A stretch of 38,803 bases of DNA from Arcobacter sp. (GCA_965662175.1 CBFIGT010000010.1:1-38803); one strand, 5' to 3'. Shown: positions 24,930-38,803, numbered from the stretch's first letter. Program-made: numbers and translations. The notes: generated by a model not told the origin, from the letters alone.

Positions 24930-26129
24930 TTATTTAACTGGTAATTCAACAATTTTCCAAGGAAGACCTTGAGTCATAAGTTCATCCATAAATGGTTTAG
25001 CATCAAACTCTTCTATATTAAATACACCTTGATTTTTCCAAATACCTTTATAAAGCATTTTAGAACCAATCATTGCAGGAACTCCTGTAGTATAACTTAC
25101 AGCTTGCGCTCCTGTCTCTTTATAACACTCTTGGTGATCACAAATATTATAGATATAAACTTTTTTAGCTTTACCATCTTTAATTCCCTCAATAATACAA
25201 CCAATATTTGTAAGTCCAACAGTTCTTGGTCCTAAGCTTGCAGGGTCTGGTAATAGTGTAGTTAAAAACTCAATTGGTGTAATCATCATCCCCTTGTGTT
25301 CAACAGGCTCAATACCTAACATTCCTACATTTTGTAAACAATTCATATGTTGAATATAAGCATCACCAAATGTCATAAAAAATCTAATTCTTTTTAGACC
25401 TTTGATATTTTTTACAAGTGATTCTAACTCTTCATGATAAAGTAAATAAGATGGTTTTACACCAACTTCAGGATAATCATGATCAACTCTTATTTCTAAA
25501 GGTTTTGTTTCAATCCACTCTCCATTTTCCCAATATCTACCATTTGCACTTACTTCTCTAAGATTAATTTCTGGATTAAAGTTTGTAGCAAATTTATAAC
25601 CATGGTCACCCGCATTACAATCCATAATATCTATTGTATGAATTTCATCAAATAGGTTTTGTTGAGCATAAGCACAAAATACACCTGTAACACCTGGGTC
25701 AAATCCACTTCCTAGTAATCCCATTATTCCAGCATCTTTAAATTGACCATCTCTAGCCCATTGCTCTTTGTACTCAAATTTTGCTTCATCAGGATGTTCA
25801 TAATTTGCTGTATCAACATAATCAACACCTGTTTTTGTACAAGCATCCATAATTGTTAAATCTTGATAAGGTAATGCAACATTTAAAACTAACTTTGGAT
25901 TAACTTTTTCAATAAGTTTTACAAGCTCATCAACACTGTCAGCATCAACAGATGCAACATCAATATCTACATTTTGATTTTTTTTAATATCATCTCTAAT
26001 AGATTCACATTTTGATATAGTTCTTGAAGCTAATGTAATTTTTTCAAATGTATCTATATTCATTGCACACTTTACAGTTGCAACCCTACTAACACCACCA
26101 GCACCGATAATTAAAATACCTTTTTTCAT
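24930..26129 (-). CDS. Carboxy(nor)spermidine dehydrogenase (saccharopine dehydrogenase family)
   Basis: [66 protein letters not shown]; clustered with nspC. Confidence 0.93.
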
Positions 26130-26231: not shown

Positions 26232-28055
26232 ATGAAATTATTTAAGTTGTTTATAATTTTTTTATTGCTGTTTTCTTTTGGAAATGCAAATGAGATAAAA
26301 AGAAAAATATTAGTAGTAGTGCCATATGGTGAAAATATAAAAATAAATGATGTACATACAAAATTAGAGGCTATTTTAAACTATTATGGTTTTTTTTGTG
26401 AATATGTGAGAGATGATGGAGTAAATTATCCTAAAAACATAGATGAATACAAAGGTTTTATTTTTTGGAACCAAGGTTTAGTTTCACCAAATCCACTAAA
26501 TCTAGCTAATTTCCTTACAAAATTTAAAGATAAAAAAAATATTATTATAGGTGATATTCCTATTGAAGACTTAAAAAATAATAATTATGAAAAAGAGATT
26601 AACAAAATTTTAAAAAAGAATTTTTATTTTTCAAGTGGTGATAATTGGGTAAAAAATCCTACTAATTTAAAAAAAGAGTATGATGATGAGTTTTTTGGAT
26701 TTGAGAAAAAAATATCATTTATAAAGGGAAATGAATTTTCAAATATAGAGATTCATAGTGATAAAATAAAAACAATTTTTAAAGAGGAGCTTGAACTTAA
26801 TAATGAAAAAATAATCTCTAATTCTGTTTTTATTGCACCATGGGGATTTTATGGTCAGTTTGATAAAGTATTTTATAAAGATGCTCAGATTAATAAAAAC
26901 AGATGGATAATAAATCCATTTAAAATGATAGAAAAAGTCTATACAAAAGAGTATCCAATACCAGATACAACTACAAAAAATGGAAAAAGAATTGCTTATA
27001 TTCATATTGATGGGGATGGAATATTATCAAAAGCATTTAATAGTAAATATACTATTGAAGTTGGATATAACTTCATTAAAAAACAACAACTAAAAACAGG
27101 TGTCTCATTTATTGTTTCAGAGTTAGATAAAAATGGACCTATATTAAAAAATGAGTATACAGAAAATGGTTCAAAAAAACATGACTATAAATTATTAAAT
27201 GATTTTGCAAAAGAGATTTATAAACTTCCCTTCGTAGAACCAGCCACACACACCTACTCACACCCTTTTAACTGGAGAGAGGGAATTGTAGCTTATAGTT
27301 CAAATAAAAATGCTACAAAAGCCATTTACAATGATATAGAAGCATACCAAGAACCGGATAAACAAGTTAACTTAGAGTTGGAAATTGAGTACTCTCTTAA
27401 TTATTTGAGAAAATTAACAAATAAACCAATAAATACCGTTTATTGGAGTGGTGATTGTTATCCATCAAAAAGAGATTTACAATATATTGAAAAAAATAAA
27501 CTTTTAGCTTTTAATGGGGGAGATAGTAGATTTGATTTGGAGTTTAACTCTTACTCTTATGTAACACCACTTAGTTTATACTCAAAAGAAGCTACACAAA
27601 TTTATTCATCAAATAGTAATGAAAATACTTATACAAATCTTTGGACAGAAAATTATTGGAGATTTAAAAATGTTGTTAAAACCTTTAGAAATACAGCTTA
27701 TCCAAAAAGAATTAAACCAGCTAACACCTATTATCATTTTTACTCTTTTGCAAAAAAAGGCTCTTTAAATAGTCTAAATAAAATTTATGCTTACTACAAA
27801 AAAAATGATTTTGAGTTTATCTATCCATCAGAGTTTATAAAAATAGCTAAAAATTTTCACGATATAAAAATTGAACAAAATAAAAACTCTTTTTTAATTT
27901 CAAATATAAAAGATTTAAGAGAGTTTAGATTTGAGGGTAAAAAAGAAGTTAGCTCAAAAGATATAGCAAAAGTATTTTATGACAAATCACTTGATGTAAC
28001 TTATGTTAGAATTAAAGATAAACTTAATCAAGCTACAATAATAGTAAATAATTAA
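26232..28055 (+). CDS. PelA-like polysaccharide deacetylase without the N-terminal hydrolase domain, paralogue 1
   Basis: Signal peptide; RWIINPF, PIPDTTTKNGKRIAYIHIDGDG, PATHTYSHPFNW, YWSGDC, FNGGD, NENTYTNLW, PKRIKP..TYYHFYS match the C-terminal half of PelA. Confidence 0.85.
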   Translation: MKLFKLFIIFLLLFSFGNANEIKRKILVVVPYGENIKINDVHTKLEAILNYYGFFCEYVRDDGVNYPKNIDEYKGFIFWNQGLVSPNPLNLANFLTKFKDKKNIIIGDIPIEDLKNNNYEKEINKILKKNFYFSSGDNWVKNPTNLKKEYDDEFFGFEKKISFIKGNEFSNIEIHSDKIKTIFKEELELNNEKIISNSVFIAPWGFYGQFDKVFYKDAQINKNRWIINPFKMIEKVYTKEYPIPDTTTKNGKRIAYIHIDGDGILSKAFNSKYTIEVGYNFIKKQQLKTGVSFIVSELDKNGPILKNEYTENGSKKHDYKLLNDFAKEIYKLPFVEPATHTYSHPFNWREGIVAYSSNKNATKAIYNDIEAYQEPDKQVNLELEIEYSLNYLRKLTNKPINTVYWSGDCYPSKRDLQYIEKNKLLAFNGGDSRFDLEFNSYSYVTPLSLYSKEATQIYSSNSNENTYTNLWTENYWRFKNVVKTFRNTAYPKRIKPANTYYHFYSFAKKGSLNSLNKIYAYYKKNDFEFIYPSEFIKIAKNFHDIKIEQNKNSFLISNIKDLREFRFEGKKEVSSKDIAKVFYDKSLDVTYVRIKDKLNQATIIVNN

Positions 28056-29031
28056 AAAGGAAAAATTTAATATGAAAAATAATATTATAATAACAATTGC
28101 ATTCATTTTTTTTACTAATCTATTCTCATATGCTTCAACTAATATAGAAAGAAAAGTGCTAGTTTTATATTCAGAAAAAAATCAAGTAAATACAAATAGT
28201 GTTCATATGAGATTAGAGTCTATTTTAAACTATTATGGATATTATGCTGAACACATCTCAACAAATCCAGATAATTATCCAAGTGATATATCATCTTATG
28301 CTGGTTTAATCTATTGGAATCAAGGTGAAAAGGTTAAAGAACCTTTAAAATTAGTACAATTTATTTCAAAATTTAAAGATAAAAAGAATATCTTTATTGG
28401 AGATATACCAACATCAGATATTAATGGCAAAAACTATATTAAAGAGATAAATCAGATTTTAAAAGATAGTTTTGGATTTCATTTTGGTGGTATTTGGATT
28501 GAAAATCCAAAAAACATAAAAAAAGAGTATGATAAAGAACTATTCGATTTTGAGATGAAAATATCTTTTTTTAATCAAAAATATTTTACCTATGTTATAA
28601 CTGATGATCCTAAAATAGATGTGGTTTTCAAAGAGTATTATAGAAATAAAATATCAAACTCCGCATTTTTTGCTCCATGGGGATTTTATGCACCACTAAA
28701 TAAAGTTTTTTATGATAATGATACTGTTGAGGGAAAAAATCGTTGGATTATTAATCCATTTAAATTAATAGAAAAAGTTTATGAAACAAATTACCCAATA
28801 CCTGATACAAGTACTAAAAACGGAAAAAGAGTTGCTTATATACATTTAGATGGGGATGGAATATTATCCAAAAATGAGAAACAAAAATATACTATTGAAA
28901 GAGCTTATAATTTTATTAAAGAGCAAAAGCTAAAAACAGGTGTCTCATTTATTGTTTCAGAATTAGATAAAAATGGACCTATATTAAAAAATGAGTATAC
29001 AAAAAATGGTACAAAAAATCATGACTATAAA
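27090..29031 (+). repeat. Near-identical 102-nt direct repeat inside the two pelA-like genes (27090-27191 and 28930-29031)
   Basis: Hand alignment gives 4 mismatches in 102 nt at an offset of 1840, equal to the offset between the two start codons. Confidence 0.85.
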
Positions 29032-29895
29032 CTTTTGAACTTTTATGCTAAAAAAATATTAGAACTACCCAATGTAGAACCAGCCACACACACCTATTCA
29101 CATCCATTTAATTGGAGAAAAGGTATTGTTTCTTATAGTGTAAATAAAGATGCTACAAAGGCTTTTCATGGGGATATTTCAGCATATCAAGAACCTGATA
29201 AACAAGTAAATTTGAACTTAGAAATTCAAAAATCTATTGATTATATTCAAAAGCTTATTCCAAATAAAAAAGTTAATACTATTTATTGGAGTGGTGATTG
29301 TTATCCCTCATTAAGAGACTTACAATATGTGGATAGTCATAATCTTTTAGCCTTTAATGGTGGTGATAATAGGTTTGATTTGGAGTTTAACAGCTACTCT
29401 TATGTTACACCTTTAAGTCTTTATTCAAAAAATGGTACGCAAATTTACTCTTCAAATAGTAATGAAAATACCTATACAGGGCTTTGGACAGAAAATCATT
29501 GGAGATTTAAAAATGTTATAAAAACATTTGAAAATACAGGATATCCAAAAAGAATTAAACCTGCAAATACATATTATCATTTTTACTCTTTTGAACATAA
29601 AGCATCATATAACTCTTTAAAAAAGATTTATTCATATTTACATAAAAATGATTTTGAATTTATTTACCCATCTGAATTTATAAAAATTGCTAAAAATTTT
29701 CATGATATAAAAATCGAAAAGATAAATGATTCGTTTAAAATATCTAATATCAAAGATTTAAGAGAGTTTAGATTTGAGGGAGAGAAGAAAATTTATTCTG
29801 ATGATATTAAGAAAATTTATTATGATAAAAAACTAAATGTTACTTATATTACTTTAAAAAATAATATTAATAGTGCCATTTTAAAAATAAGATAA
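28072..29895 (+). CDS. PelA-like polysaccharide deacetylase without the N-terminal hydrolase domain, paralogue 2
   Basis: Same length (607 aa) and motif set (HLDGDG, THTYSHPFNW, WSGDC, NENTYT.LW, YYHFYS); own signal peptide and AAGGA RBS. Confidence 0.85.
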   Translation: MKNNIIITIAFIFFTNLFSYASTNIERKVLVLYSEKNQVNTNSVHMRLESILNYYGYYAEHISTNPDNYPSDISSYAGLIYWNQGEKVKEPLKLVQFISKFKDKKNIFIGDIPTSDINGKNYIKEINQILKDSFGFHFGGIWIENPKNIKKEYDKELFDFEMKISFFNQKYFTYVITDDPKIDVVFKEYYRNKISNSAFFAPWGFYAPLNKVFYDNDTVEGKNRWIINPFKLIEKVYETNYPIPDTSTKNGKRVAYIHLDGDGILSKNEKQKYTIERAYNFIKEQKLKTGVSFIVSELDKNGPILKNEYTKNGTKNHDYKLLNFYAKKILELPNVEPATHTYSHPFNWRKGIVSYSVNKDATKAFHGDISAYQEPDKQVNLNLEIQKSIDYIQKLIPNKKVNTIYWSGDCYPSLRDLQYVDSHNLLAFNGGDNRFDLEFNSYSYVTPLSLYSKNGTQIYSSNSNENTYTGLWTENHWRFKNVIKTFENTGYPKRIKPANTYYHFYSFEHKASYNSLKKIYSYLHKNDFEFIYPSEFIKIAKNFHDIKIEKINDSFKISNIKDLREFRFEGEKKIYSDDIKKIYYDKKLNVTYITLKNNINSAILKIR

Positions 29896-30016
29896 ATTAT
29901 TCAAAAGTTATTATAAAAGGTTTTTTTGTTAAAATAGTTAGACTTTTATAATTAGATAAAATAAAAATTATTATTTAAACAAAAATAATATTAATATATA
30001 AAAAAAAGAGTTTAAT

Positions 30017-32926
30017 TTGAAATATAAAATAGTTTTTGCTTCCATTTTTGTATTAATAGCTTTTTTTATAGCCTTTGCTATAAAACCTGAAACAAAAGAG
30101 ATGGTTTATGTTTATGAAAAAAGTAAAAACCTAAAAAAACTAAATGAAGAATATACTAAAATAATAGAAACAAAACCTGATGACTTGGAATTATTAAAAA
30201 AATTAGCAGATAACTCTTATAAACTAAATGATGAAAGCTATTTACAGCACTCCATAAAATATTATAATTTAAAAAAAGATTATGAAATTCTAAGAAGAAT
30301 TATAGACGCATATAAAATAAAAAATGATTATACAAATGCCCTACAATGGTTAGAAATAGCATATAATGACTTTGATAAAATCGAAGACTTAAATGAAATC
30401 ATAGCAATTTCAAGTACTGCAAAAAATGAAGAACTTTTAAAAACTTATCTAAAAAAACTCTATTTAAGAAGTAGTGAAACAAAAATATTATTTACACTTT
30501 ATGGATTAAATGATAAAGAGTACTCCCTTGAAAAAATTTATAATTTAATGGAAAATAATCAATTAGATGAAGAGGATTATAATAAAGGTCTTATTTTAAG
30601 TATTTATGAAAAAGATTTAGATATTGCCTATAATTTTTACTCTAAAAAAGATTTAAAATTTTTAGATCCAATTAAATATGAAAAAGAGTATTCATATATG
30701 TTGGAAAACTTACAAAATACAGAAGAGATAATAAAACTAAATAAATTTCTTTATAAAAAGACAAATAATGAAACTTATTATAAAAACTTTACTGATAGAT
30801 TACTTTATGAGGGTGATATTGATAGATATTTAGAGACTGTAAAAGATAGATATGAAAAAGAAAAAAGAGTTTCTGATTTAAATGATATTATTAAATATGA
30901 TTATTTAAACGAAGATATTGAGAGTTATTTATCATTTTTAAGTGAAAAAGTAATTTTAGAAAAAGATATTAAAACTGCTGAATCTATAATAGCTTATTAT
31001 ATTGATTTAGGAGATGAAGAGGCATTAAAAAATATTTTATTAAAATTAAGTAATATTACAAAAGAGTATGATGAGTTTAAAGATTTATGCTTACGTACCT
31101 ATGCATATTTAGAGATGTATGAAACAGCTCAAGAGCTTTTATTAAAGTTTTCACCAAAAGAGGTAAGTCCAAATGTTGTTTATTCTGTATTTAATAGAAA
31201 AATAAATGAAAAATCAATGCCATATTTTATGGAAATTCTAAAAAACTCAAATGATAAAGTTACAAAGGGTAAGTTATTTAGATATAGATATAAAACACTA
31301 AAACTTTTTACAGAAGAGACATATGAGTATTTTGGTAAACCATCTACATTTAAGAAACTATACACATATATAGAGATGTTTCCAGATGAGGATAAAAATA
31401 AAAACCTATTAAAATTTGCAAATGAGTCAAGTGACCCAATGTTTATTTCAGAAATTGCCCAATACCTTTTATTTAAAAATAAAAAAACTGAAGCAGTTTC
31501 ACTTTTTGAAAAAGCCCTTTTACTCTACCCTTATAACAAACTATCTTTAAAAACATTAGCTTCAATTTATTTATACGATAATAAAAAAGAAAAAGCATAT
31601 GAAATGTTAAGTAAGCTGAAAAAAATAGATAACTCTGATGCTGAGATTGATTATTATTTAGCAGAGTATTACTATCAAAAAAATAATAAGAAAGAGTATA
31701 TTAAATATTATAATGAAGTTATAAATAAACTTGCAATTAAATCACTAAGAGAAGAGTACATAATTTTAAGAGCAAAATCAAAAATCACTTCATCATCAAA
31801 CTATAAAAAAGAGTTTGCACAATTAATTAGTGATTCTAAAAATGATGTTGACTTAATCGCTGATATTTGGTACTTATTTTATGAAGATAAAGAGTATGAA
31901 TATTTATTAAATGAAATTACAAATTTAAAAGAGCTAGTAGATAATAATTATAAATTACAAGAGATTGAAGTTATTACATATATGGCTTTAAATAAAGATG
32001 ATCTAGCAAAAAATAAAATTAAGGCAATTTTAGAAAAAGATAATGAGCCTTTGAACTCAGCCGTTTTATATGAAAGACTAGCCTATATTGAATATAAAAG
32101 ATTTAATAAATTTGAAGCTTTAAAAAACTATGAAAAAAGTCTTTCTTTGAGTTATTCAAAAGATAAAGAAGAGTTTACAAATGAACTAAAAAAAGAGTTT
32201 AGGACAAAAGTTGAAGTGGAAACGGGTGTAAGAAGTGATATAAAAGAGTTTCATTTAAACTTTAGAAAACTTATTGATAAAATAAAAGTAAATCTAACTT
32301 ATGATAGCTATGATGACTATAACTCAGCTAAAATCAAATTAAGTGATTTAGATGAAAAATATCTTTTTGGTATTGGAAAAGATTATGTAAAACTACAATT
32401 TAGTTATCTATTTGGTTTAAATTTAGCCTTAAGTTATGAAAAAAATATTGATACATCAAGTGAGCTTATAGTTAAAAATAAATTAAAACATGATATATTT
32501 TCTATAAGTTATTCAAGAGCATTATCCGATAATCTATTTTATAGTTTAAAAGGTGATTATTTTAGATATGATGATTTTAATAGAAAAAAACTTGAAAACA
32601 CACTTTATATGCCCTTTTATCAAACATACTTTACTTCATTTTCATTGATAAATGAAAGAGTTGATAAAGATAATATATTTGGATATGAGAGTGAAAATCG
32701 TTATATTCTAGCCTTTGGGGAGAATAATAAAATAAATGACAATTTACTCTATTTCTACTCATTTGGAGGAGAAAAAGATAAAAGTGATACAAGCTATTTT
32801 ATAAATTTTGATTTATATTTTAACCAGCGAGATTATGATGTATCTTTGAAAAACTCTTTTTCTAAAGATCCATTAAATAGTGATTATAATTTTAATAGTA
32901 TGTTAAATTTCTCATACTATTTTTAA
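30017..32926 (+). CDS. PelB-like TPR scaffold with probable C-terminal outer-membrane beta-barrel
   Basis: N-terminal hydrophobic segment, long helical TPR-like region (AVSLFEKALLLYPYN, YYLAEYYY, ALKNYEKSL), aromatic-rich alternating C-terminal region ending NFSYYF; position in a pel cluster. TTG start. Confidence 0.7.
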   Translation: MKYKIVFASIFVLIAFFIAFAIKPETKEMVYVYEKSKNLKKLNEEYTKIIETKPDDLELLKKLADNSYKLNDESYLQHSIKYYNLKKDYEILRRIIDAYKIKNDYTNALQWLEIAYNDFDKIEDLNEIIAISSTAKNEELLKTYLKKLYLRSSETKILFTLYGLNDKEYSLEKIYNLMENNQLDEEDYNKGLILSIYEKDLDIAYNFYSKKDLKFLDPIKYEKEYSYMLENLQNTEEIIKLNKFLYKKTNNETYYKNFTDRLLYEGDIDRYLETVKDRYEKEKRVSDLNDIIKYDYLNEDIESYLSFLSEKVILEKDIKTAESIIAYYIDLGDEEALKNILLKLSNITKEYDEFKDLCLRTYAYLEMYETAQELLLKFSPKEVSPNVVYSVFNRKINEKSMPYFMEILKNSNDKVTKGKLFRYRYKTLKLFTEETYEYFGKPSTFKKLYTYIEMFPDEDKNKNLLKFANESSDPMFISEIAQYLLFKNKKTEAVSLFEKALLLYPYNKLSLKTLASIYLYDNKKEKAYEMLSKLKKIDNSDAEIDYYLAEYYYQKNNKKEYIKYYNEVINKLAIKSLREEYIILRAKSKITSSSNYKKEFAQLISDSKNDVDLIADIWYLFYEDKEYEYLLNEITNLKELVDNNYKLQEIEVITYMALNKDDLAKNKIKAILEKDNEPLNSAVLYERLAYIEYKRFNKFEALKNYEKSLSLSYSKDKEEFTNELKKEFRTKVEVETGVRSDIKEFHLNFRKLIDKIKVNLTYDSYDDYNSAKIKLSDLDEKYLFGIGKDYVKLQFSYLFGLNLALSYEKNIDTSSELIVKNKLKHDIFSISYSRALSDNLFYSLKGDYFRYDDFNRKKLENTLYMPFYQTYFTSFSLINERVDKDNIFGYESENRYILAFGENNKINDNLLYFYSFGGEKDKSDTSYFINFDLYFNQRDYDVSLKNSFSKDPLNSDYNFNSMLNFSYYF

Positions 32927-32935
32927 AGGAACCCA

Positions 32936-34150
32936 ATGATTATACTTTATTTGTTAACCCTGTTTATGATTGTTTTTTCTTTTCAAGAAAATACTAATGT
33001 AAAAAAATACCTAATTGTATTTATGGTATTTAGTTTAGCTTATTTCTTCTTATCAGTTGAAATAATGGTTCCATATAAACAAAATGATTATTTATCTTTT
33101 TATGATTATCTTTTATCAATATATTTTCCATATATTATAGCAATGATAATCTCATTTTATATTCGATATGAAATTGAAAAAAAAGCCAAAATAATTAGTA
33201 AATTAGAGACTAATGTAAACACATATCATGAAAAAATACAAAATCTAATTCATATAAGTGAAAGAACAAAAAGAGAAAAAAATGATTTAGAAAAAAGATT
33301 AATATCAGAAGAAAAAGAGTCAATAAAAATTAGAGAGATTATGACAAAAATCAATAACTTTAGTCTATTAGATATTGAAAAAAATGTTATTAATTTCCTA
33401 AAAAAGATTGTACCAACAGCTGAAATGAGATTTTATAAAAATGAAGAGGGAAACTTAAAATATATTGACTCTACTAAAAAGAATTCAGAGCAAAATCTAA
33501 TAAAAAATGATGACTTATACAACTATATTTTCTCAAGAGATGAAGATATATCAAGTTCACTTGACTATAAAGATAGATTTAAAGAGAAAATAATTATTAC
33601 CTTAAGATTAGGTAAAAATGAAATTTTTGGAACAATTTTAATTGATGATATAGATTTCTTCTCATTAAATAAAGTTACAATTCAAAGTCTTTATTACTTT
33701 ACAGAGTTACTATCTTTACATATTGAAAAAAGTTTAATTTTTCAAAAACAAAAAGAGACCTCATACTCTTACAACTATAAAAATATCTACAATATCTTTT
33801 TCCTAAAAAAGATACTATACCATGAACTAAATACAGCCAAAAGACACAATTTAGACTCAGCTATTATAAAACTTACAAGTAAAGATTTTATGGATAAAAA
33901 TGAAGATGTTTTATTTGATGATATTGAGGATTTCTATGGAAAGTATTTAAGAAAAACAGACTTAGTATTTTATAATCAAGAGGAGAGGTCTTTTATATTT
34001 GTATTCCCAATAACAAAAATTGAAAAAGTTAAATTTATTAAAGAAAAAATTGTTTCAAATTTATCTAATTACTATTTAAAAGTTAATTCATACTATATTA
34101 CAAAAAATAAGCAAGAAAAAGAGTTATTCTTGGATATTGGAATAAAATAG
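32936..34150 (+). CDS. pelD: PelD-like c-di-GMP receptor (TMs, coiled coil, GAF, degenerate GGDEF)
   Basis: N-terminal TMs, coiled coil, GAF-like segment (FGTILIDDIDFFSLN), RxxD I-site RKTD at 33950-33961, no GG(D/E)EF motif; precedes pelE/F/G. Confidence 0.72.
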   Translation: MIILYLLTLFMIVFSFQENTNVKKYLIVFMVFSLAYFFLSVEIMVPYKQNDYLSFYDYLLSIYFPYIIAMIISFYIRYEIEKKAKIISKLETNVNTYHEKIQNLIHISERTKREKNDLEKRLISEEKESIKIREIMTKINNFSLLDIEKNVINFLKKIVPTAEMRFYKNEEGNLKYIDSTKKNSEQNLIKNDDLYNYIFSRDEDISSSLDYKDRFKEKIIITLRLGKNEIFGTILIDDIDFFSLNKVTIQSLYYFTELLSLHIEKSLIFQKQKETSYSYNYKNIYNIFFLKKILYHELNTAKRHNLDSAIIKLTSKDFMDKNEDVLFDDIEDFYGKYLRKTDLVFYNQEERSFIFVFPITKIEKVKFIKEKIVSNLSNYYLKVNSYYITKNKQEKELFLDIGIK

Positions 34151-35002
34151 ATGATTTTTTGGATTTTTTGGATTTCTTTATCATCCTTATTTTTTGGAAT
34201 ATTAGGCTTTATTGCCTCACTATTTTCAATATTTATTTATTATATATTTAAAACTAATCTTTTTAAAATTGTAAATATAAAAGATAAGGGCTTGAATAAA
34301 AAAACTCAAAGAGAAAATCTAATGCTTGATTTAACAGAGGTTTTAGAAAAAGAGAAAAATGTCAAGTTTGATATAAATAGAGTAAAATCATATAAACAAA
34401 TTTTATATTATGGAACTGTTAGAGAAAAAATTGAACTAATTGGAATGGTTGTTTATAATCCATCTTCAGAGTTTGTAGATTTGATTAGAATAGCTCTTGA
34501 AGACGAAGATGAAACAGTTAGAATACTTAGTTCAACTTCTTTACAAAAAATGGAATCCTATTATGAAGATAAAATAAAAGAGTTTCAAACTAAGTTTCAA
34601 ACTTTTACACAAATTAGGAAAAAAAATCTATTTTTTAGAAAATTAATTTTTACATATGATAAATATATTGATTCTACTTTGATTGATTATTATTTAAAAG
34701 ATATTTACATAGATAAAATGTTTAATGAGTTTAAAAATATAGAAGATTTAAAAGAGAATAAACTTATTTTATATGTTTATATTAAGATGTCTGTTAAATA
34801 TCAAAGATTAGAGGGAATTGAGGAGATATTATTTGAATTGATTGAAAAAAGAGATCGTATTTCTGATAGATTTTTATTAATTGAGCTTTATTATAAACAA
34901 TCAAATTTTACAAGATTGTATGAGGTACTTAACTCAATAGATATTAATAAAATAAAAAATACTAAGCAAATTGATTCTTATGAGTATTGGAGAAGTATAT
35001 AA
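34151..35002 (+). CDS. PelE-like inner-membrane protein with HEAT/TPR-like helices
   Basis: Hydrophobic N-terminus; LIRIALEDEDETVRILSSTSLQKME HEAT-like motif; lies between pelD and pelF. Confidence 0.65.
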   Translation: MIFWIFWISLSSLFFGILGFIASLFSIFIYYIFKTNLFKIVNIKDKGLNKKTQRENLMLDLTEVLEKEKNVKFDINRVKSYKQILYYGTVREKIELIGMVVYNPSSEFVDLIRIALEDEDETVRILSSTSLQKMESYYEDKIKEFQTKFQTFTQIRKKNLFFRKLIFTYDKYIDSTLIDYYLKDIYIDKMFNEFKNIEDLKENKLILYVYIKMSVKYQRLEGIEEILFELIEKRDRISDRFLLIELYYKQSNFTRLYEVLNSIDINKIKNTKQIDSYEYWRSI

Positions 35003-35004
35003 AT

Positions 35005-36507
35005 ATGAAAAATACAAAAAAAATAGCAGATATTTGTCTTATTATTGAGGGAAGTTACCCTTATGTAAAAGGTGGTGTTGCTAGTTGGGTTCATCAAATT
35101 TTAACAAACTACTCTGAATTTACTTTTGATTTAGTTGTACTTGTTGCATCAGATAAAACCAAACTTGTATCTAAATATGACTTACCATCTAATGTAAATA
35201 AAGTTTATAATCTTCCAATAAGAAGAGAGGTAAAAGTTCCAATTTTTTCAAAAAAGAGAATGAAACATTTTCCACTATTTGAAAAGTTCTTAAGTACTTT
35301 TTTTGATTTTCAAGAGTTTGAAAACTTAATAAAAAACTTAATAAAACTTAATAAAAATGAAAAATATAGATTACTTGAAGACTCTTTATATTCAGAAGAG
35401 ATATTTGATTATATAAATGAGTTCTATCAAAATAGTAGAGAGTTTAAAACAAAACCATATATTGACTTTTTTTGGTCTTTAAGAAGTATCTATTTCTCTT
35501 TTTTAAATGTTTTGATTTTTGATATGCCAAAAGCAAAGGTTTATCACACTATTTCTACAGGTTATGCAGGGCTTTGTGCCTCAATTTGTAAAATAAAATA
35601 TCCCAATTCTAGATTACTAATTACAGAACATGGTATTTATACAAGAGAAAGAAAAATGGATATTACAATTGCTGATTGGTCAGATAGAGATTATGAAGCC
35701 TATAATCCAAAAAATAGTATATCTTTATATAAAAATATGTGGGAAGATTCATTTGAAATAATTTCAAAAACCACATATAAATATTGTGATGAAATTCTCT
35801 CTTTAAATCTAAAAAACAACCTTATACAGATAAAAGAAGGAGCACAAGAAGATAAAGTCTATTTTGTTAGAAATGGAATAAATTTAAGTAGATTTAACTT
35901 TATAGAGAGAAAAAGTATAAATAAAGAGAGTATAAAAATTGGCTTTTTAGGAAGAGTAGTAAATATCAAAGATGTTAAAACATTCATAAAAGCTGCTGAT
36001 ATTGTTAAATCATCATATCCAACAGTTAGTTTTTTAATTGCAGGACCTAATGATGAAGATATTGATTATTTTAATAGTTGCCAAGATTTAGTAAATGCTT
36101 TAAACTTAAAAGATAATGTTAAATTCATAGGTACTGTAAAAGCAGAAGATTTCTTACAAGAGATTGATATTATGGTATTAACTTCACTCTCAGAGGGTCA
36201 ACCTTTAGTAATAGGTGAAGCAAATGCCTGTGGAGTTCCTTGTGTAGTAACTGATGTTGGTGGTTCAGCGGAGATGGTTTTAGGTGGAGCTGATGATACA
36301 ATTGGTCCATCGGGAATTGTTACTAAATCTGTTAATCCAATACAAACAGCAAATGGAATATTAAAATTTATTGAAAATGAGAAATTTTATAATGAGTGTT
36401 CAAAAAATGGGGTAAAAAGAGTAAAAACCTTTTATAATGAGCAAACTTTTCTTAATAAATATAGAGAAATATATCAAAATAATATTGCAAAAAGTGAGAC
36501 TATATAA
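35005..36507 (+). CDS. pelF: GT4 family Pel glycosyltransferase PelF
   Basis: ADICLIIEGSYPYVKGGVASWVHQI, HTISTGYAG, ITEHGIYTRER, GRVVNIKDVKTFI, SLSEGQPLVIGEA, TDVG. ATG 35005 is preferred to TTG 34987. Confidence 0.95.
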   Translation: MKNTKKIADICLIIEGSYPYVKGGVASWVHQILTNYSEFTFDLVVLVASDKTKLVSKYDLPSNVNKVYNLPIRREVKVPIFSKKRMKHFPLFEKFLSTFFDFQEFENLIKNLIKLNKNEKYRLLEDSLYSEEIFDYINEFYQNSREFKTKPYIDFFWSLRSIYFSFLNVLIFDMPKAKVYHTISTGYAGLCASICKIKYPNSRLLITEHGIYTRERKMDITIADWSDRDYEAYNPKNSISLYKNMWEDSFEIISKTTYKYCDEILSLNLKNNLIQIKEGAQEDKVYFVRNGINLSRFNFIERKSINKESIKIGFLGRVVNIKDVKTFIKAADIVKSSYPTVSFLIAGPNDEDIDYFNSCQDLVNALNLKDNVKFIGTVKAEDFLQEIDIMVLTSLSEGQPLVIGEANACGVPCVVTDVGGSAEMVLGGADDTIGPSGIVTKSVNPIQTANGILKFIENEKFYNECSKNGVKRVKTFYNEQTFLNKYREIYQNNIAKSETI

Positions 36508-37868
36508 TGCAAAAAAAAGAATCAAATATACTAAAACTTTTTGAACAAGAAAACAATAAAATAAATGAATTTGAGATTATTAAATCAATTTTCACAACCT
36601 CAGGAGCTTGGTTAATCTCTATTATTACTCTTTTATCTATTAAATTTCTTATGAAAGATATTATTACAAAAGAGTTATATGATTTATTTTTAACAATAAT
36701 TATTTATAGTTTTATTTTTTCAATGATTATAACAGCACCATTTATAAATATGATAAATAGATATTTAGGAGATAAAATTTATCTAAAAGAGTATGATTCT
36801 ATTTTACCTATATTTATAAGCTCATTTATTTTAATAGCCCCTGTTTCATATTTAAGCTCATTTTATTATGTAAGATATTTTACAAATCTTGGGGATTTTA
36901 GTTTTGTTATTGCGCAATTTTTTACCTCTTTATCCATATTATGGCTAATTATGATATTTATAACTATTTTTAAACACTTTGCAATAATAAACTTTTCATT
37001 TTTAATTGGAATGATTATTTCAATAGTTTTAATAAAATATCTATTTCATGATGACTTATATAGTCTAATTTTGGGCTTTAATAGTGGAGTACTATTTACA
37101 GTATCAGTATTAGTTGCAAAATTAAAATATGATTTTACATTCCGAAGCTATTTTGATTTCTCATTTTTAAAAGAGAAAAAATATTATCTCTTTTTTCTAA
37201 GTGGATTATTGTTATATTTAGCCTTATGGACTGATAAATTTATGTATTGGGCTTCAGGATATGGAGTTGAAATAGAAAAAGGTTTTTATTTTTTTCCTGA
37301 ATATGATTTTGTTATTTTTATCTCTTATTTGGTAATTATTCCTGTAAATTCATACTTAACTGTATATATAAATGATGTTTTTAATATCGAACAAAAGCAG
37401 TATTTTAAAGCAATTGAAAACAAAAAAAGCTTTGCAATAATAAATAACTTTGCTAGAAATTTACAAAATACCTTTTATAGAGGTATTTTTAAAATCACTC
37501 TTTTTCAGTTTATTATATCTTTACTTTTTGTATTTTCTATACACTATTTTTTTGATAAATTTAATATAAATGTAGAGTCAATTCCTATGTTGAGAATTGT
37601 AGTTTTTGCTATTACAATACAGATGATTTTAATGGCAATTATTGTTTTCTTATACTATTTTGATTTTCAAAAAGAGATATTCTTTATCTCCCTTTGTTAT
37701 TTTATTTTAAACTTTAGCTTCTCATATTTTATGGTTAATTTATCATATGATTATATTGGATACTCTTATTTTATTTCAGCATTATTGACGCTATTTATAG
37801 CTTTTATAATTTCCTCATATAAAATGGAAAGAATTAACTTTTATATTATTGCAAGAAATGAGGTTTAA
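36507..37868 (+). CDS. pelG: Pel exopolysaccharide transporter PelG
   Basis: About 12 TM segments; SGAWLISI, RYLGDKIY, LWTDKFMYW, YDF..FISYL, LYYFD; coupled to pelF by TAATG. Confidence 0.88.
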   Translation: MQKKESNILKLFEQENNKINEFEIIKSIFTTSGAWLISIITLLSIKFLMKDIITKELYDLFLTIIIYSFIFSMIITAPFINMINRYLGDKIYLKEYDSILPIFISSFILIAPVSYLSSFYYVRYFTNLGDFSFVIAQFFTSLSILWLIMIFITIFKHFAIINFSFLIGMIISIVLIKYLFHDDLYSLILGFNSGVLFTVSVLVAKLKYDFTFRSYFDFSFLKEKKYYLFFLSGLLLYLALWTDKFMYWASGYGVEIEKGFYFFPEYDFVIFISYLVIIPVNSYLTVYINDVFNIEQKQYFKAIENKKSFAIINNFARNLQNTFYRGIFKITLFQFIISLLFVFSIHYFFDKFNINVESIPMLRIVVFAITIQMILMAIIVFLYYFDFQKEIFFISLCYFILNFSFSYFMVNLSYDYIGYSYFISALLTLFIAFIISSYKMERINFYIIARNEV

Positions 37869-37869
37869 T

Positions 37870-38604
37870 ATGTTTAGAATAATTTTTATATTTTTATTTT
37901 CATTTAATGTATATGCATTAGATAATTTAAAAGTTTTAATACCACTTTATAGTGTCCCTTCTTTATGGATAGAGCAAATAGAAAAGCTAAAGTCAATCAA
38001 AGATAAAGAGATAACTACTTATGCCATTATAAATCCAAATAATGGACCTGGAGAAAAAGAGCAGCAAGATTATATTGATGGAATAAAGCTACTAAAAGAG
38101 CATAATATTCATGTAATAGGGTATGTTTATACACTTTATGGGAAAAGAGACCCAAATATAGTTAAAGAGGATATTTACAAGTGGTCAAGTTTTTATCAAG
38201 AGTATGGATTAGAGGGTATATTTTTTGATGAAACAGACAATAAAGTTGACTCTTTAGAGTTTTATAAAGATTTGACAACATACTCTAAAACCCATGATTT
38301 TAATTTTAATATCTTAAATCCAGGTTATACAATAGATGAGGCTTTTATTGATCAAAATATCGCTGAACTAATTGTAACTTACGAAAACTCATATAAAAAC
38401 TGGGAAAATTCATTTCCAACAGTTAAAAATCAAGAAAATGAAAAAACAAAACTCTCTTTACTTTTACATAGTATGGAAAAAGATGGCTTTGGAATTGTTA
38501 TGCACAAAGCCAAATCTCAGGGCTTTTCATATATATATTTAACAGAAGATAAAGATAGTAATCCATGGGATTCAATTTCTGAGTACTTTTTAAAATATTT
38601 TTAG
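37870..38604 (+). CDS. Spherulin-4/Sph3-like (GH135) secreted glycoside hydrolase
   Basis: Signal peptide MFRIIFIFLFSFNVYA; IPLYS.P, IINPNNGPG, IGYVYTLYGKR, GIFFDE, LNPG, VTYE, YIYLT...NPW motifs; GAGG RBS before ATG 37870. Confidence 0.85.
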   Translation: MFRIIFIFLFSFNVYALDNLKVLIPLYSVPSLWIEQIEKLKSIKDKEITTYAIINPNNGPGEKEQQDYIDGIKLLKEHNIHVIGYVYTLYGKRDPNIVKEDIYKWSSFYQEYGLEGIFFDETDNKVDSLEFYKDLTTYSKTHDFNFNILNPGYTIDEAFIDQNIAELIVTYENSYKNWENSFPTVKNQENEKTKLSLLLHSMEKDGFGIVMHKAKSQGFSYIYLTEDKDSNPWDSISEYFLKYF

Positions 38605-38605
38605 A

Positions 38606-38611
38606 TATAAT
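38606..38611 (+). promoter_or_regulatory. -10 box of the ssrA promoter
   Basis: Perfect TATAAT ending 15 nt before the mature tmRNA 5' end. Confidence 0.6.
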
Positions 38612-38626
38612 TCAATTCCAATTTAT

Positions 38627-38803
38627 GGGGATGACTTGGTATCGATTAGAGCAGTGAGGATTAGTTGCATGTCGGCCTGAACATGCCGTTACACGGTTCA
38701 CTTTTTTTAGACGCAAATAATACAAATTACGCTCCAGCTTACGCTAAAGCTGCGTAAGTTTAACAACTTATTGACTCGCCTAACGGCTTGAGTCTCGGAG
38801 ACT
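38627..38803 (+). ncRNA. ssrA: tmRNA, 5' part (runs off the window end)
   Basis: Begins GGGGATGACTTGGTATCGA (tRNA-Ala-like 5' end); tag frame 38713-38757 reads ANNTNYAPAYAKAA*, a Campylobacterota-type tag. Confidence 0.96.

What the first reader, a model, noticed from the sequence alone, without database searches (positions are those of the whole stretch)
26232..38604. Remodelled Pel-type exopolysaccharide system in a Campylobacterota genome: pelA(DA)-pelA(DA)-pelB-pelD-pelE-pelF-pelG-GH135
Seen: eight co-directional, mostly tightly coupled genes with clear PelF and PelG motifs. Established: the Pseudomonas operon is pelABCDEFG, with one bifunctional hydrolase-deacetylase PelA and a PelC lipoprotein, while Gram-positive clusters split PelA and lack PelB/C. 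Inference: this cluster mixes the two, with a diderm PelB-like exporter, deacetylase-only PelA in two copies, no pelC, and a hydrolase from a different family. I know of no characterised Pel system in Arcobacteraceae, but cannot verify that here. It predicts a c-di-GMP-controlled, partly de-N-acetylated alpha-1,4-GalNAc biofilm polymer.
Basis: partly seen in the sequence, partly recalled or inferred. Interest (0 to 1): 0.85.

Follow-up and report, generated by a model that had tools for sequence, protein, structure and literature searches.

The report
Streamlined PelC-free Pel biofilm locus
A rare, likely horizontally acquired eight-gene cluster in an Arcobacter-family genome encodes a trimmed version of the Pel biofilm-sugar machinery, without the outer-membrane helper PelC that Pseudomonas needs, with two deacetylase-only PelA copies and a fungal-type hydrolase, so it is predicted to make and export a Pel-like polymer by a simpler route.

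Summary
Observation confirmed. All eight open frames are intact and their labels hold. PelF and PelG pass curated cut-offs. The 969-aa protein models as TPR repeats plus a 16-strand barrel closest to PelB (Z 23.5, tied with PgaA). PelD and PelE match by profile, and GH135 keeps both catalytic acids. No pelC was found in this genome or in the two family members with the locus.

The "Gram-positive hybrid" reading fails: both PelAs are Gram-negative CE21 enzymes starting exactly after the hydrolase domain, not CE26. A model supports PelA docking on PelB.

The locus is in 3 of 184 Arcobacteraceae genomes, sits in a normally empty spot beside ssrA, and belongs to a different lineage from the Pel operons of other Campylobacterota. 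Relatives suggest a series: whole PelA, then split PelA, then hydrolase replaced by GH135. The pelA duplicate is in 1 of 5 complete loci. c-di-GMP control is uncertain, because PelD's third essential Arg is Lys.

Split PelA in diderms and Pel in Campylobacterota are already tabulated, and this scan noted pelC-less loci before on other DNA. Verdict: new variant of a known kind.

The parts
26232..28055 (+). pelA1: signal peptide, mixed alpha/beta domain, CE21 deacetylase and a short beta-rich tail; no GH166 domain
   Evidence: 9cgy E 1.4e-47. The clade profile aligns to chain 256-812, about PtPelA residue 292 onward, the start of the alpha/beta domain. H258, D260, D262, H340, H344, E464 and H502 are present.
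28072..29895 (+). pelA2: tandem paralogue with the same domains and a full catalytic set
   Evidence: 66% identical to A1: about 51% over residues 20-240 and 80% over 241-545. Motifs intact. Junction bridged in 4 of 4 runs.
30017..32926 (+). pelB: N-terminal hydrophobic helix, TPR solenoid (26-726) and 16-strand beta-barrel (731-968) with a short helix between strands 7 and 8
   Evidence: AF2 pLDDT 84.7; barrel alone 93.9. Top match 9h80 PelB, Z 23.5, rmsd 3.5, 312 aligned; PgaA Z 22.9 is tied. Foldseek ranks 9h80 first.
32936..34150 (+). pelD: TM helices, coiled coil, GAF-like and degenerate GGDEF region with RxxD (R339-K-T-D342); Lys371 at the PaPelD R402 position
   Evidence: The clade-only profile matches other PelD at 97.4%, E 1.2e-11. 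A mixed profile hits PDB PelD at E 6e-16. Motifs.
34151..35002 (+). pelE: membrane-anchored helical-repeat subunit
   Evidence: The clade-only HMM hits PelE-position proteins at E 2.3e-11, and the Pseudoalteromonas one at 7.4e-7. It lies between pelD and pelF.
35005..36507 (+). pelF: GT4 glycosyltransferase (the ORF tool gives an upstream TTG at 34987)
   Evidence: NF038011 393.6 bits against a cut-off of 100; DUF3492 plus GT4.
36507..37868 (+). pelG: inner-membrane exporter; its N-terminus lacks the conserved start seen in relatives
   Evidence: PF16933 E 6.5e-80, matching from residue 23; 11 hydrophobic segments.
37870..38604 (+). GH135 (Sph3-like) hydrolase with a likely signal peptide (the ORF tool gives 37849)
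   Evidence: PF12138 E 4.6e-46. Aligns to Sph3 5c5g with D127 and E179 at its catalytic acids. Found in the same 3 of 184 family genomes as pelF and pelG.
38627..38803 (+). 5' part of ssrA (tmRNA), right flank of the insertion site
   Evidence: 90% identical to an ARAGORN-called tmRNA in G535; 87-96% to relatives.
24930..26129 (-). Left flank: conserved 399-aa gene (saccharopine-dehydrogenase-like, label recalled from its sequence) that is back-to-back with ssrA in relatives
   Evidence: Adjacent to ssrA, with no Pel genes between, in 3 of 4 same-genus genomes tested and in G535 and G552.

Best explanation
This is an intact Pel-family synthase locus of a separate lineage in which no pelC was found, likely acquired horizontally, and it is predicted to make and export a partly de-N-acetylated alpha-1,4-GalNAc polymer through a PelB barrel that would work without the PelC ring.

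Steps: (1) PelDEFG polymerise UDP-GalNAc and move the chain across the inner membrane. The homology is shown; the activity is inferred. No epimerase lies in the cluster, but the genome has 6 NAD-epimerase-family genes. (2) PelA1 and PelA2, CE21 deacetylases that lack only the part not needed for PelB binding, dock on the PelB TPR scaffold and remove acetyls. Catalytic residues are shown, docking is modelled for A1 only, and activity is inferred. (3) The chain exits through the 16-strand PelB barrel with no PelC, as PgaA and BcsC do. The fold is modelled; PelC independence is inferred from absence. (4) A free periplasmic GH135 takes over the trimming and release role of the lost GH166 domain. 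Residues and co-occurrence are shown; the role is inferred. (5) c-di-GMP binding to PelD RxxD probably gates synthesis (about 60%). The second pelA is likely a redundant or dosage copy that is partly homogenised by gene conversion.
For: Family cut-offs are passed. CE21 residues are invariant in 40 aligned homologues, H258 in 39 of 40 (motif numbering from PMC12022489). PelB fold and the Plug-I-like helix (PMC12141448).

PelA1-PelB(230-630) model: score 0.73 against a best of 3 controls of 0.23. The mark was reached by 116 of 157 solved and 2 of 215 mismatched pairs; runs agree in at least 76% of contacts; partner pLDDT at least 88; my own alignments were used, so the counts hold only roughly. 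The modelled interface uses the deacetylase and alpha/beta domains, as reported for Pseudomonas. 17 of 22 interface residues are identical in A2.

pelC was not found in G000 (94% complete), G535 (99%) or G552 (86%) with a profile that hits PDB PelC at E 3e-49 and 3 of 3 control genomes. Gene order A-B-D-E-F-G-GH135 is kept in 5 distinct complete loci whose PelF is 62-64% identical to the window's, which points to selection on the whole set. The genome has 31 GGDEF domains and 6 epimerase-family genes.

Acquisition: 3 of 184 family genomes, in three genera, none of the 7 congeners. GC is 23.4%, below all 314 equal-length genome windows (mean 28.1%). The site is empty in relatives. PelF and PelA trees separate this clade from other Campylobacterota.
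Against: There are no expression or biochemical data. The barrel match to PelB is tied with PgaA, and identity is 11%. G000 is a 249-contig assembly, and a very divergent PelC substitute would be missed. The PelD Arg shown essential in P. aeruginosa (R402) and B. cereus (R395) is Lys in 6 of 6 members, and the nearest outside relative L067 lacks RxxD. The window PelG has lost the conserved N-terminal motif. GH135 prefers acetylated stretches more than GH166 does (PMC12054363), so the polymer may differ from Pel. The complex model may pass by likeness to other TPR-enzyme pairs, and I chose the PelB fragment. The PelA tree is the quick version and is midpoint-rooted, so the direction of change is not established.
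Confidence: 0.72

Rival explanations
1. The machinery is the same, but export still needs a ring lipoprotein: an unlinked, very divergent PelC or an analogue supplied by the host.
For: PelC is essential in P. aeruginosa (PMC12141448 passages). G000 is incomplete. Weak profile hits at E about 0.1 exist and were not followed up.
Against: There is no room for a gene between pelB and pelD (9 bp), and none in 5 complete loci or L067. No hit in a 99%-complete genome, while controls hit at E below 1e-54. PgaA and BcsC export without such a ring.
Confidence: 0.1
2. The locus makes a related but chemically different polymer, for example mostly acetylated GalNAc or a Gal/GalNAc chain like fungal GAG, and is not gated by c-di-GMP.
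For: PelF is only 32-37% identical to canonical PelFs. The hydrolase is of the fungal GAG family. PelD has Lys for the third essential Arg, and L067 has no RxxD.
Against: All CE21 catalytic residues are kept, in two copies here. PelF passes the PelF equivalog cut-off four-fold. RxxD is kept in 6 of 6 members.
Confidence: 0.13
3. It is a hybrid of Gram-negative export genes and a Gram-positive PelA_DA.
For: Deacetylase-only PelA plus a separate hydrolase is the described Gram-positive arrangement (PMC7890745).
Against: No DUF2194 match. The only significant PDB match is CE21 PtPelA; B. cereus PelA_DA is CE26. The nearest full-length relatives are diderm PelAs with a GH114-like domain. Whether entry 9ZAU is in the PDB copy searched was not checked.
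Confidence: 0.02
4. It is a silent or decaying island.
For: Patchy distribution, a divergent PelG N-terminus, and no demonstrated expression.
Against: No stops or frameshifts in 12.4 kb. Catalytic residues are intact. The same sequence is found in independent runs with few differences.
Confidence: 0.03

Closest known systems
Pseudomonas aeruginosa pelABCDEFG (PelA CE21/GH166, PDB 9cgy; PelBC, PDB 9h80; PelD, PDB 4dmz/4etx)
   Same: Gene order A-B-(C)-D-E-F-G, CE21 active site, TPR plus 16-strand barrel with a helix between strands 7 and 8, PelD RxxD, PelF and PelG families.
   Different: No pelC. PelA lacks GH166 and most of the beta-rich tail, and is duplicated. PelB is shorter (969 against 1193 aa) and its last loop is not glycine-rich. 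GH135 is appended. PelD has Lys at the R402 position.
Nautilia/Aquificae-type pelC-D-E-F-G-A-B operons (PMC7112194 supplement 9; 17 of 400 other Campylobacterota sampled)
   Same: Same phylum and same core synthase.
   Different: Different gene order and full-length PelA (827-933 aa); pelC is present in 15 of 17. A separate clade in the PelF and PelA trees.
Bacillus cereus pelDEA_DAFG with separate PelA_H (PMC7112168, PMC13254593)
   Same: Deacetylase and hydrolase on separate genes; no PelC.
   Different: Its deacetylase is CE26/CBM114, membrane-anchored and partnered with PelG; there is no PelB; its hydrolase is PelA_H-like, not GH135.
Split-PelA diderm loci (Desulfovibrio salexigens and Magnetococcus marinus in PMC7112194 supplement 9; Azospirillum thermophilum)
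   Same: Stand-alone PelA deacetylase gene in a diderm.
   Different: They keep the cognate hydrolase gene next door and a pelC.
PgaA (PNAG) and BcsC (cellulose) secretins
   Same: TPR plus 16-strand barrel that exports polymer without a lipoprotein ring (Z 22.9 and 20.8).
   Different: Different polymers and GT2 synthases (recalled); here the synthase is PelDEFG.
Aspergillus Sph3 (GH135, PDB 5c5g)
   Same: Fold family and both catalytic acids.
   Different: A fungal GAG enzyme; here it is the last gene of a bacterial Pel operon.

Membership tests
Pel synthase-dependent system (broad) | PelF GT4 adjacent to PelG | tested here: met
   both are over their curated cut-offs.
Pel synthase-dependent system (broad) | PelD and PelE upstream of pelF | tested here: met
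   Clade-only profiles: PelD 97.4%, E 1.2e-11; PelE E 2.3e-11.
Pel synthase-dependent system (broad) | PelA-type deacetylase with the full catalytic set | tested here: met
   HxDxD, HxxxH, E464 and H502 in both copies.
Pel synthase-dependent system (broad) | Product is partly de-N-acetylated alpha-1,4-GalNAc | not testable with these tools
   Needs chemistry.
Pel synthase-dependent system (broad) | c-di-GMP binding to PelD (RxxD plus a second Arg) | tested here: inconclusive
   RxxD is kept in 6 of 6; the second Arg is Lys in 6 of 6.
Canonical Gram-negative pelABCDEFG | PelB TPR plus 16-strand barrel | tested here: met
   (tied with PgaA by Z).
Canonical Gram-negative pelABCDEFG | pelC lipoprotein | tested here: not met
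   Not in the locus; not found in 3 of 3 genomes with the locus (86-99% complete); controls positive.
Canonical Gram-negative pelABCDEFG | Bifunctional GH166-CE21 PelA | tested here: not met
   Both proteins start at the alpha/beta domain; no hydrolase-profile hit in the locus.
Gram-positive pelDEA_DAFG | CE26/DUF2194 membrane-anchored PelA_DA | tested here: not met
   No PF09960 hit; the only significant PDB match is CE21.
Gram-positive pelDEA_DAFG | No PelB | tested here: not met
   A PelB-like barrel is present.
GH135 | Spherulin-4 domain with the Sph3 catalytic Asp and Glu | tested here: met
   activity not tested.

The most novel reading that the evidence does not exclude
This lineage shows that the PelC ring, described as the unique essential part of Pel export, is a dispensable add-on. 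It also records the stepwise dismantling of bifunctional PelA: whole (L067), split into hydrolase plus deacetylase (L065, L066), then the hydrolase replaced by a fungal-type GH135 (Arcobacteraceae). That yields a minimal PelB-only secretion system. In it, two deacetylases with homogenised active sites but divergent alpha/beta domains would alternate on one PelB site to set the polymer's charge, under a PelD with weakened c-di-GMP gating.
Probability: 0.35. Interest if true: 0.65.

Novelty: new variant of a known kind. Interest (0 to 1): 0.45.

Why it matters
In Pseudomonas all seven pel genes are required, and PelC is called the feature that sets Pel export apart. A compact natural system with a 969-aa PelB and no PelC gives a direct test of what the ring is for. 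Its single-function CE21 enzyme and free GH135 separate two activities that are fused in PelA, so their effects on polymer charge and release can be studied one at a time. It also adds a candidate matrix polymer to a family that is common in wastewater and coastal water, for which my searches found none described. The chemistry and most parts are known, which limits the score.

Tried and rejected
Pfam and NCBIfam gave nothing for PelA1, PelA2 and PelD, and single-sequence PDB search missed PelD; profiles were needed. Foldseek on full-length PelB returned mostly generic TPR proteins. The wide VIA search on the barrel did not run.

The promoter scan was at chance level (118 found against 104.5 +/- 11.8) and found no terminator-like site within the cluster or between it and ssrA. 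Rfam found nothing at gathering score, so no riboswitch. ARAGORN missed the cut tmRNA. No flanking repeats appeared among those listed (20 largest of 23 direct-repeat families shown), and all eight frames are accounted for, so the cluster holds no integrase gene. No RNA holder was listed. Short joints skipping the cluster probably come from related organisms; I relied on genomes instead.

I considered the stand-alone PelA-hydrolase-like gene on G000:C21 as this operon's lost domain. It is 37-46% identical to the L065-L067 hydrolases, but it has no evident signal peptide, is in 1 of 184 family genomes, and lies beside a gene tied to a different GT4 locus. This is left open.

I first read the pelA pairs as independent duplications; one search shows that conversion can mimic this. 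The Sulfitobacter stretch has no pelC but also no PelA deacetylase hit, so it was not counted. Duplicates were dropped before counting loci: L001 = G535, L062 has the same proteins as G552, and L061 is partial.
Full report
OBSERVATION. The eight frames are present and unbroken at the stated places. PelF scores 393.6 bits on NF038011 (cut-off 100), PelG matches PF16933 at E 6.5e-80, and the last gene matches PF12138 at E 4.6e-46. The two 607-aa proteins are 66% identical. Contigs from 4 of 4 public runs laid, from four studies, bridge their junction; the best holder, which could be the source sample, was left out. The cluster is followed after 22 bp by the 5' end of ssrA. The genome is in the same family as G535, whose record is titled Arcobacteraceae.

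PELA. PelA1 matches P. thermotolerans PelA (9cgy) at E 1.4e-47. A 40-sequence profile aligns from chain position 256, about residue 292, where the mixed alpha/beta domain begins (domain limits from PMC12022489 passages; the offset is inferred from the HxDxD motif). So exactly the GH166 domain is missing, plus most of the beta-rich tail. All CE21 residues are present in both copies: H258, D260, D262, H340, H344, E464, H502. B. cereus PelA_DA is a different family, CE26 (PMC13254593 passages). Neither Pfam nor PDB linked the window proteins to it. The Gram-positive-hybrid idea is therefore rejected; the likeness is convergent.

PELB AND PELC. The AF2 model (pLDDT 84.7, 7 sequences) has an N-terminal hydrophobic helix, TPR helices to residue 726 and 16 strands from 731 to 968. 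A short helix lies between strands 7 and 8 and a loop between strands 11 and 12, as described for P. aeruginosa PelB (PMC12141448 passages). The best structural match is PelB of 9h80 (Z 23.5, rmsd 3.5, 312 aligned), tied with PgaA (22.9) and above BcsC (20.8). Foldseek on the barrel ranks 9h80 first.

A PelC profile that hits PDB PelC at E 3e-49 and 3 of 3 control genomes whose PelCs were in the alignment found nothing in G000, G535 or G552 (94, 99 and 86% complete). A 51-sequence HMM gave a best E of 0.12 over 9,736 G000 frames, against 3.7e-43 for an independent Pseudoalteromonas PelC.

A complex model of PelA1 with PelB 230-630 scored 0.73 against a best control of 0.23. The mark was met by 116 of 157 solved and 2 of 215 mismatched pairs; runs agree in at least 76% of contacts; partner pLDDT is at least 88; my own alignments were used. 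It supports binding but does not show it. The interface is on the deacetylase and alpha/beta domains, as modelled for Pseudomonas, where the isolated hydrolase domain does not bind PelB. 17 of 22 interface residues are the same in PelA2, so both copies would use one site (inference).

PELD, PELE, GH135. A profile of six clade PelDs matches other PelDs at 97.4%. RxxD is kept in 6 of 6, but the third residue shown essential in P. aeruginosa (R402, PMC2170427 passages) and B. cereus (R395, PMC7112168 passages) is Lys371 in 6 of 6. The outside relative L067 has no RxxD. The genome has 31 GGDEF domains, so gating is plausible, about 60%. The clade PelE profile hits other PelEs at up to E 2.3e-11.

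GH135 keeps D127 and E179 at the Sph3 catalytic positions. The family is a retaining alpha-N-acetylgalactosaminidase that favours acetylated stretches more than GH166 does (PMC12054363 passages). In the family, GH135, pelF and pelG occur in the same 3 of 184 genomes, always in this locus. GH135 also lies next to full-length pelA in 2 of 80 metagenome loci, L110 and L111. I recall that the 2015 Sph3 paper noted a bacterial homologue near pel genes; I could not read it.

DISTRIBUTION AND ORIGIN. Complete A-B-D-E-F-G-GH135 loci: G000, G535, G552, L063 and L064. Only G000 has two pelA, though G552's contig ends about 640 bp upstream. Two more probable pairs exist among database proteins sharing contig lengths, context unseen.

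Of 401 phylum genomes, 23 pass the PelF cut-off: G000, 17 with D-E-F-G followed by full-length PelA, and 5 that belong to a different GT4 locus. pelC lies upstream in 15 of the 17 and was not found in the other two, both 99% complete. PelF and PelA trees put the window clade with L067 and apart from those operons (quick and FastTree, midpoint-rooted, with compositional bias flagged).

The nearest relatives form a series. L067 has whole PelA-B-D-E-F-G with no pelC. L065 and L066 have a separate hydrolase gene, then PelA_DA, then PelB (partial contigs). A Cloacimonadota-labelled MAG has tandem whole PelAs. The direction is inferred, not shown. Hydrolase-less PelAs of 620-800 aa are frequent among the 120 listed homologues, with names from Bdellovibrionota, Minwuia and Bryobacteraceae.

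The cluster sits between two genes that are back-to-back in 3 of 4 congeners tested and in G535 and G552. G535 carries its copy 3' of ssrA, and G552 carries its copy on a different contig from ssrA. GC is 23.4%, below all 314 equal-length windows. Horizontal gain is likely; no mobility gene was seen.

DUPLICATES. A1 and A2 are about 51% identical over residues 20-240 and 80% over 241-545. Four-fold sites match at 23 of 28 in residues 241-340 against 29 of 72 elsewhere (region picked after the fact). The pair P0003/P0006 is 100% identical in the catalytic part and 59% in front. Gene conversion is the likely cause; assembly collapse is not excluded for that pair.

LITERATURE. No held paper joins 'Pel polysaccharide' with Arcobacter or Arcobacter with pelF. 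'Lacking pelC' had no occurrence in the 15 of 51 papers listed. The 15 of 157 listed for Campylobacterota had no pelF or pelG. Searches were listings only. Supplement 9 of PMC7112194 (parts 22-23 of 37 read; files 13-18 not searched) lists a Nautilia operon and split PelA in D. salexigens and M. marinus, all with pelC; no Arcobacter row was found in the files searched. I also read parts 1-2 of 4 of PMC7890745, section 8 of PMC12022489, and passages of PMC9894940, PMC7112194, PMC7112168 and bioRxiv 2020.05.26.111013. The last notes that earlier surveys used PelC as the query, which would miss this locus by design. Unheld subscription papers and unseen supplements could hold the same layout. Earlier notes of this scan report pelC-less loci in other phyla; I checked only the Azospirillum split-PelA claim.

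VERDICT. It works like Pel (0.72). It is not a member of the canonical seven-gene type or of the Gram-positive type. It is a new variant of a known kind, with each single feature seen elsewhere and the combination rare. Interest 0.45.

Noticed in passing
G000:C91:274-9494 (L143); also L049, L050, L051, L059, L060: A second, conserved locus built round a PelF-like DUF3492-GT4 (about 27% identical to the window PelF) with no PelG. In L050 the order is outer-membrane efflux protein, GT4, a ~530-aa unknown, a 300-450-aa probable lipoprotein, a ~730-aa unknown and an HD-domain protein, with a GH135 upstream. Seen in 5 of 400 other Campylobacterota plus G000. It may be an undescribed polysaccharide system.
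   Followed up: partly
G000:C21:7465-8181 (-) (L142): Stand-alone PelA-hydrolase-like gene with catalytic-type motifs, 37-46% identical to the L065-L067 hydrolases, no evident signal peptide, found in 1 of 184 family genomes. It lies next to a 326-aa lipoprotein gene whose homologues flank the second GT4 locus.
   Followed up: partly
G057 (L036) and G341 (L038): Two 99%-complete Campylobacterota genomes of one other family have canonical-type pelD-E-F-G-A but no pelC found genome-wide, suggesting an independent loss.
   Followed up: partly
window 36507-36570: PelG lacks the conserved N-terminal motif of its relatives; an independent contig (run X2) covers this stretch with few differences.
   Followed up: partly
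window 38602-38627: The GH135 stop codon abuts the -10-like box of ssrA and no terminator-like site was found between them, so read-through into ssrA is possible.
   Followed up: no
G000:C100 (L144): This contig overlaps the window's end by 77 bp in reverse orientation and carries a 431-aa integrase-like frame (label by eye) next to the ssrA end, suggesting an island 3' of ssrA.
   Followed up: no
L098, L135: High-GC loci with hydrolase-less PelA, a short 257-264-aa protein in the PelB position with no room for a barrel, D-E-F-G and no pelC.
   Followed up: no
L044-L048: Five Campylobacterota PelFs carry a ~70-aa insertion that splits the profile match.
   Followed up: no
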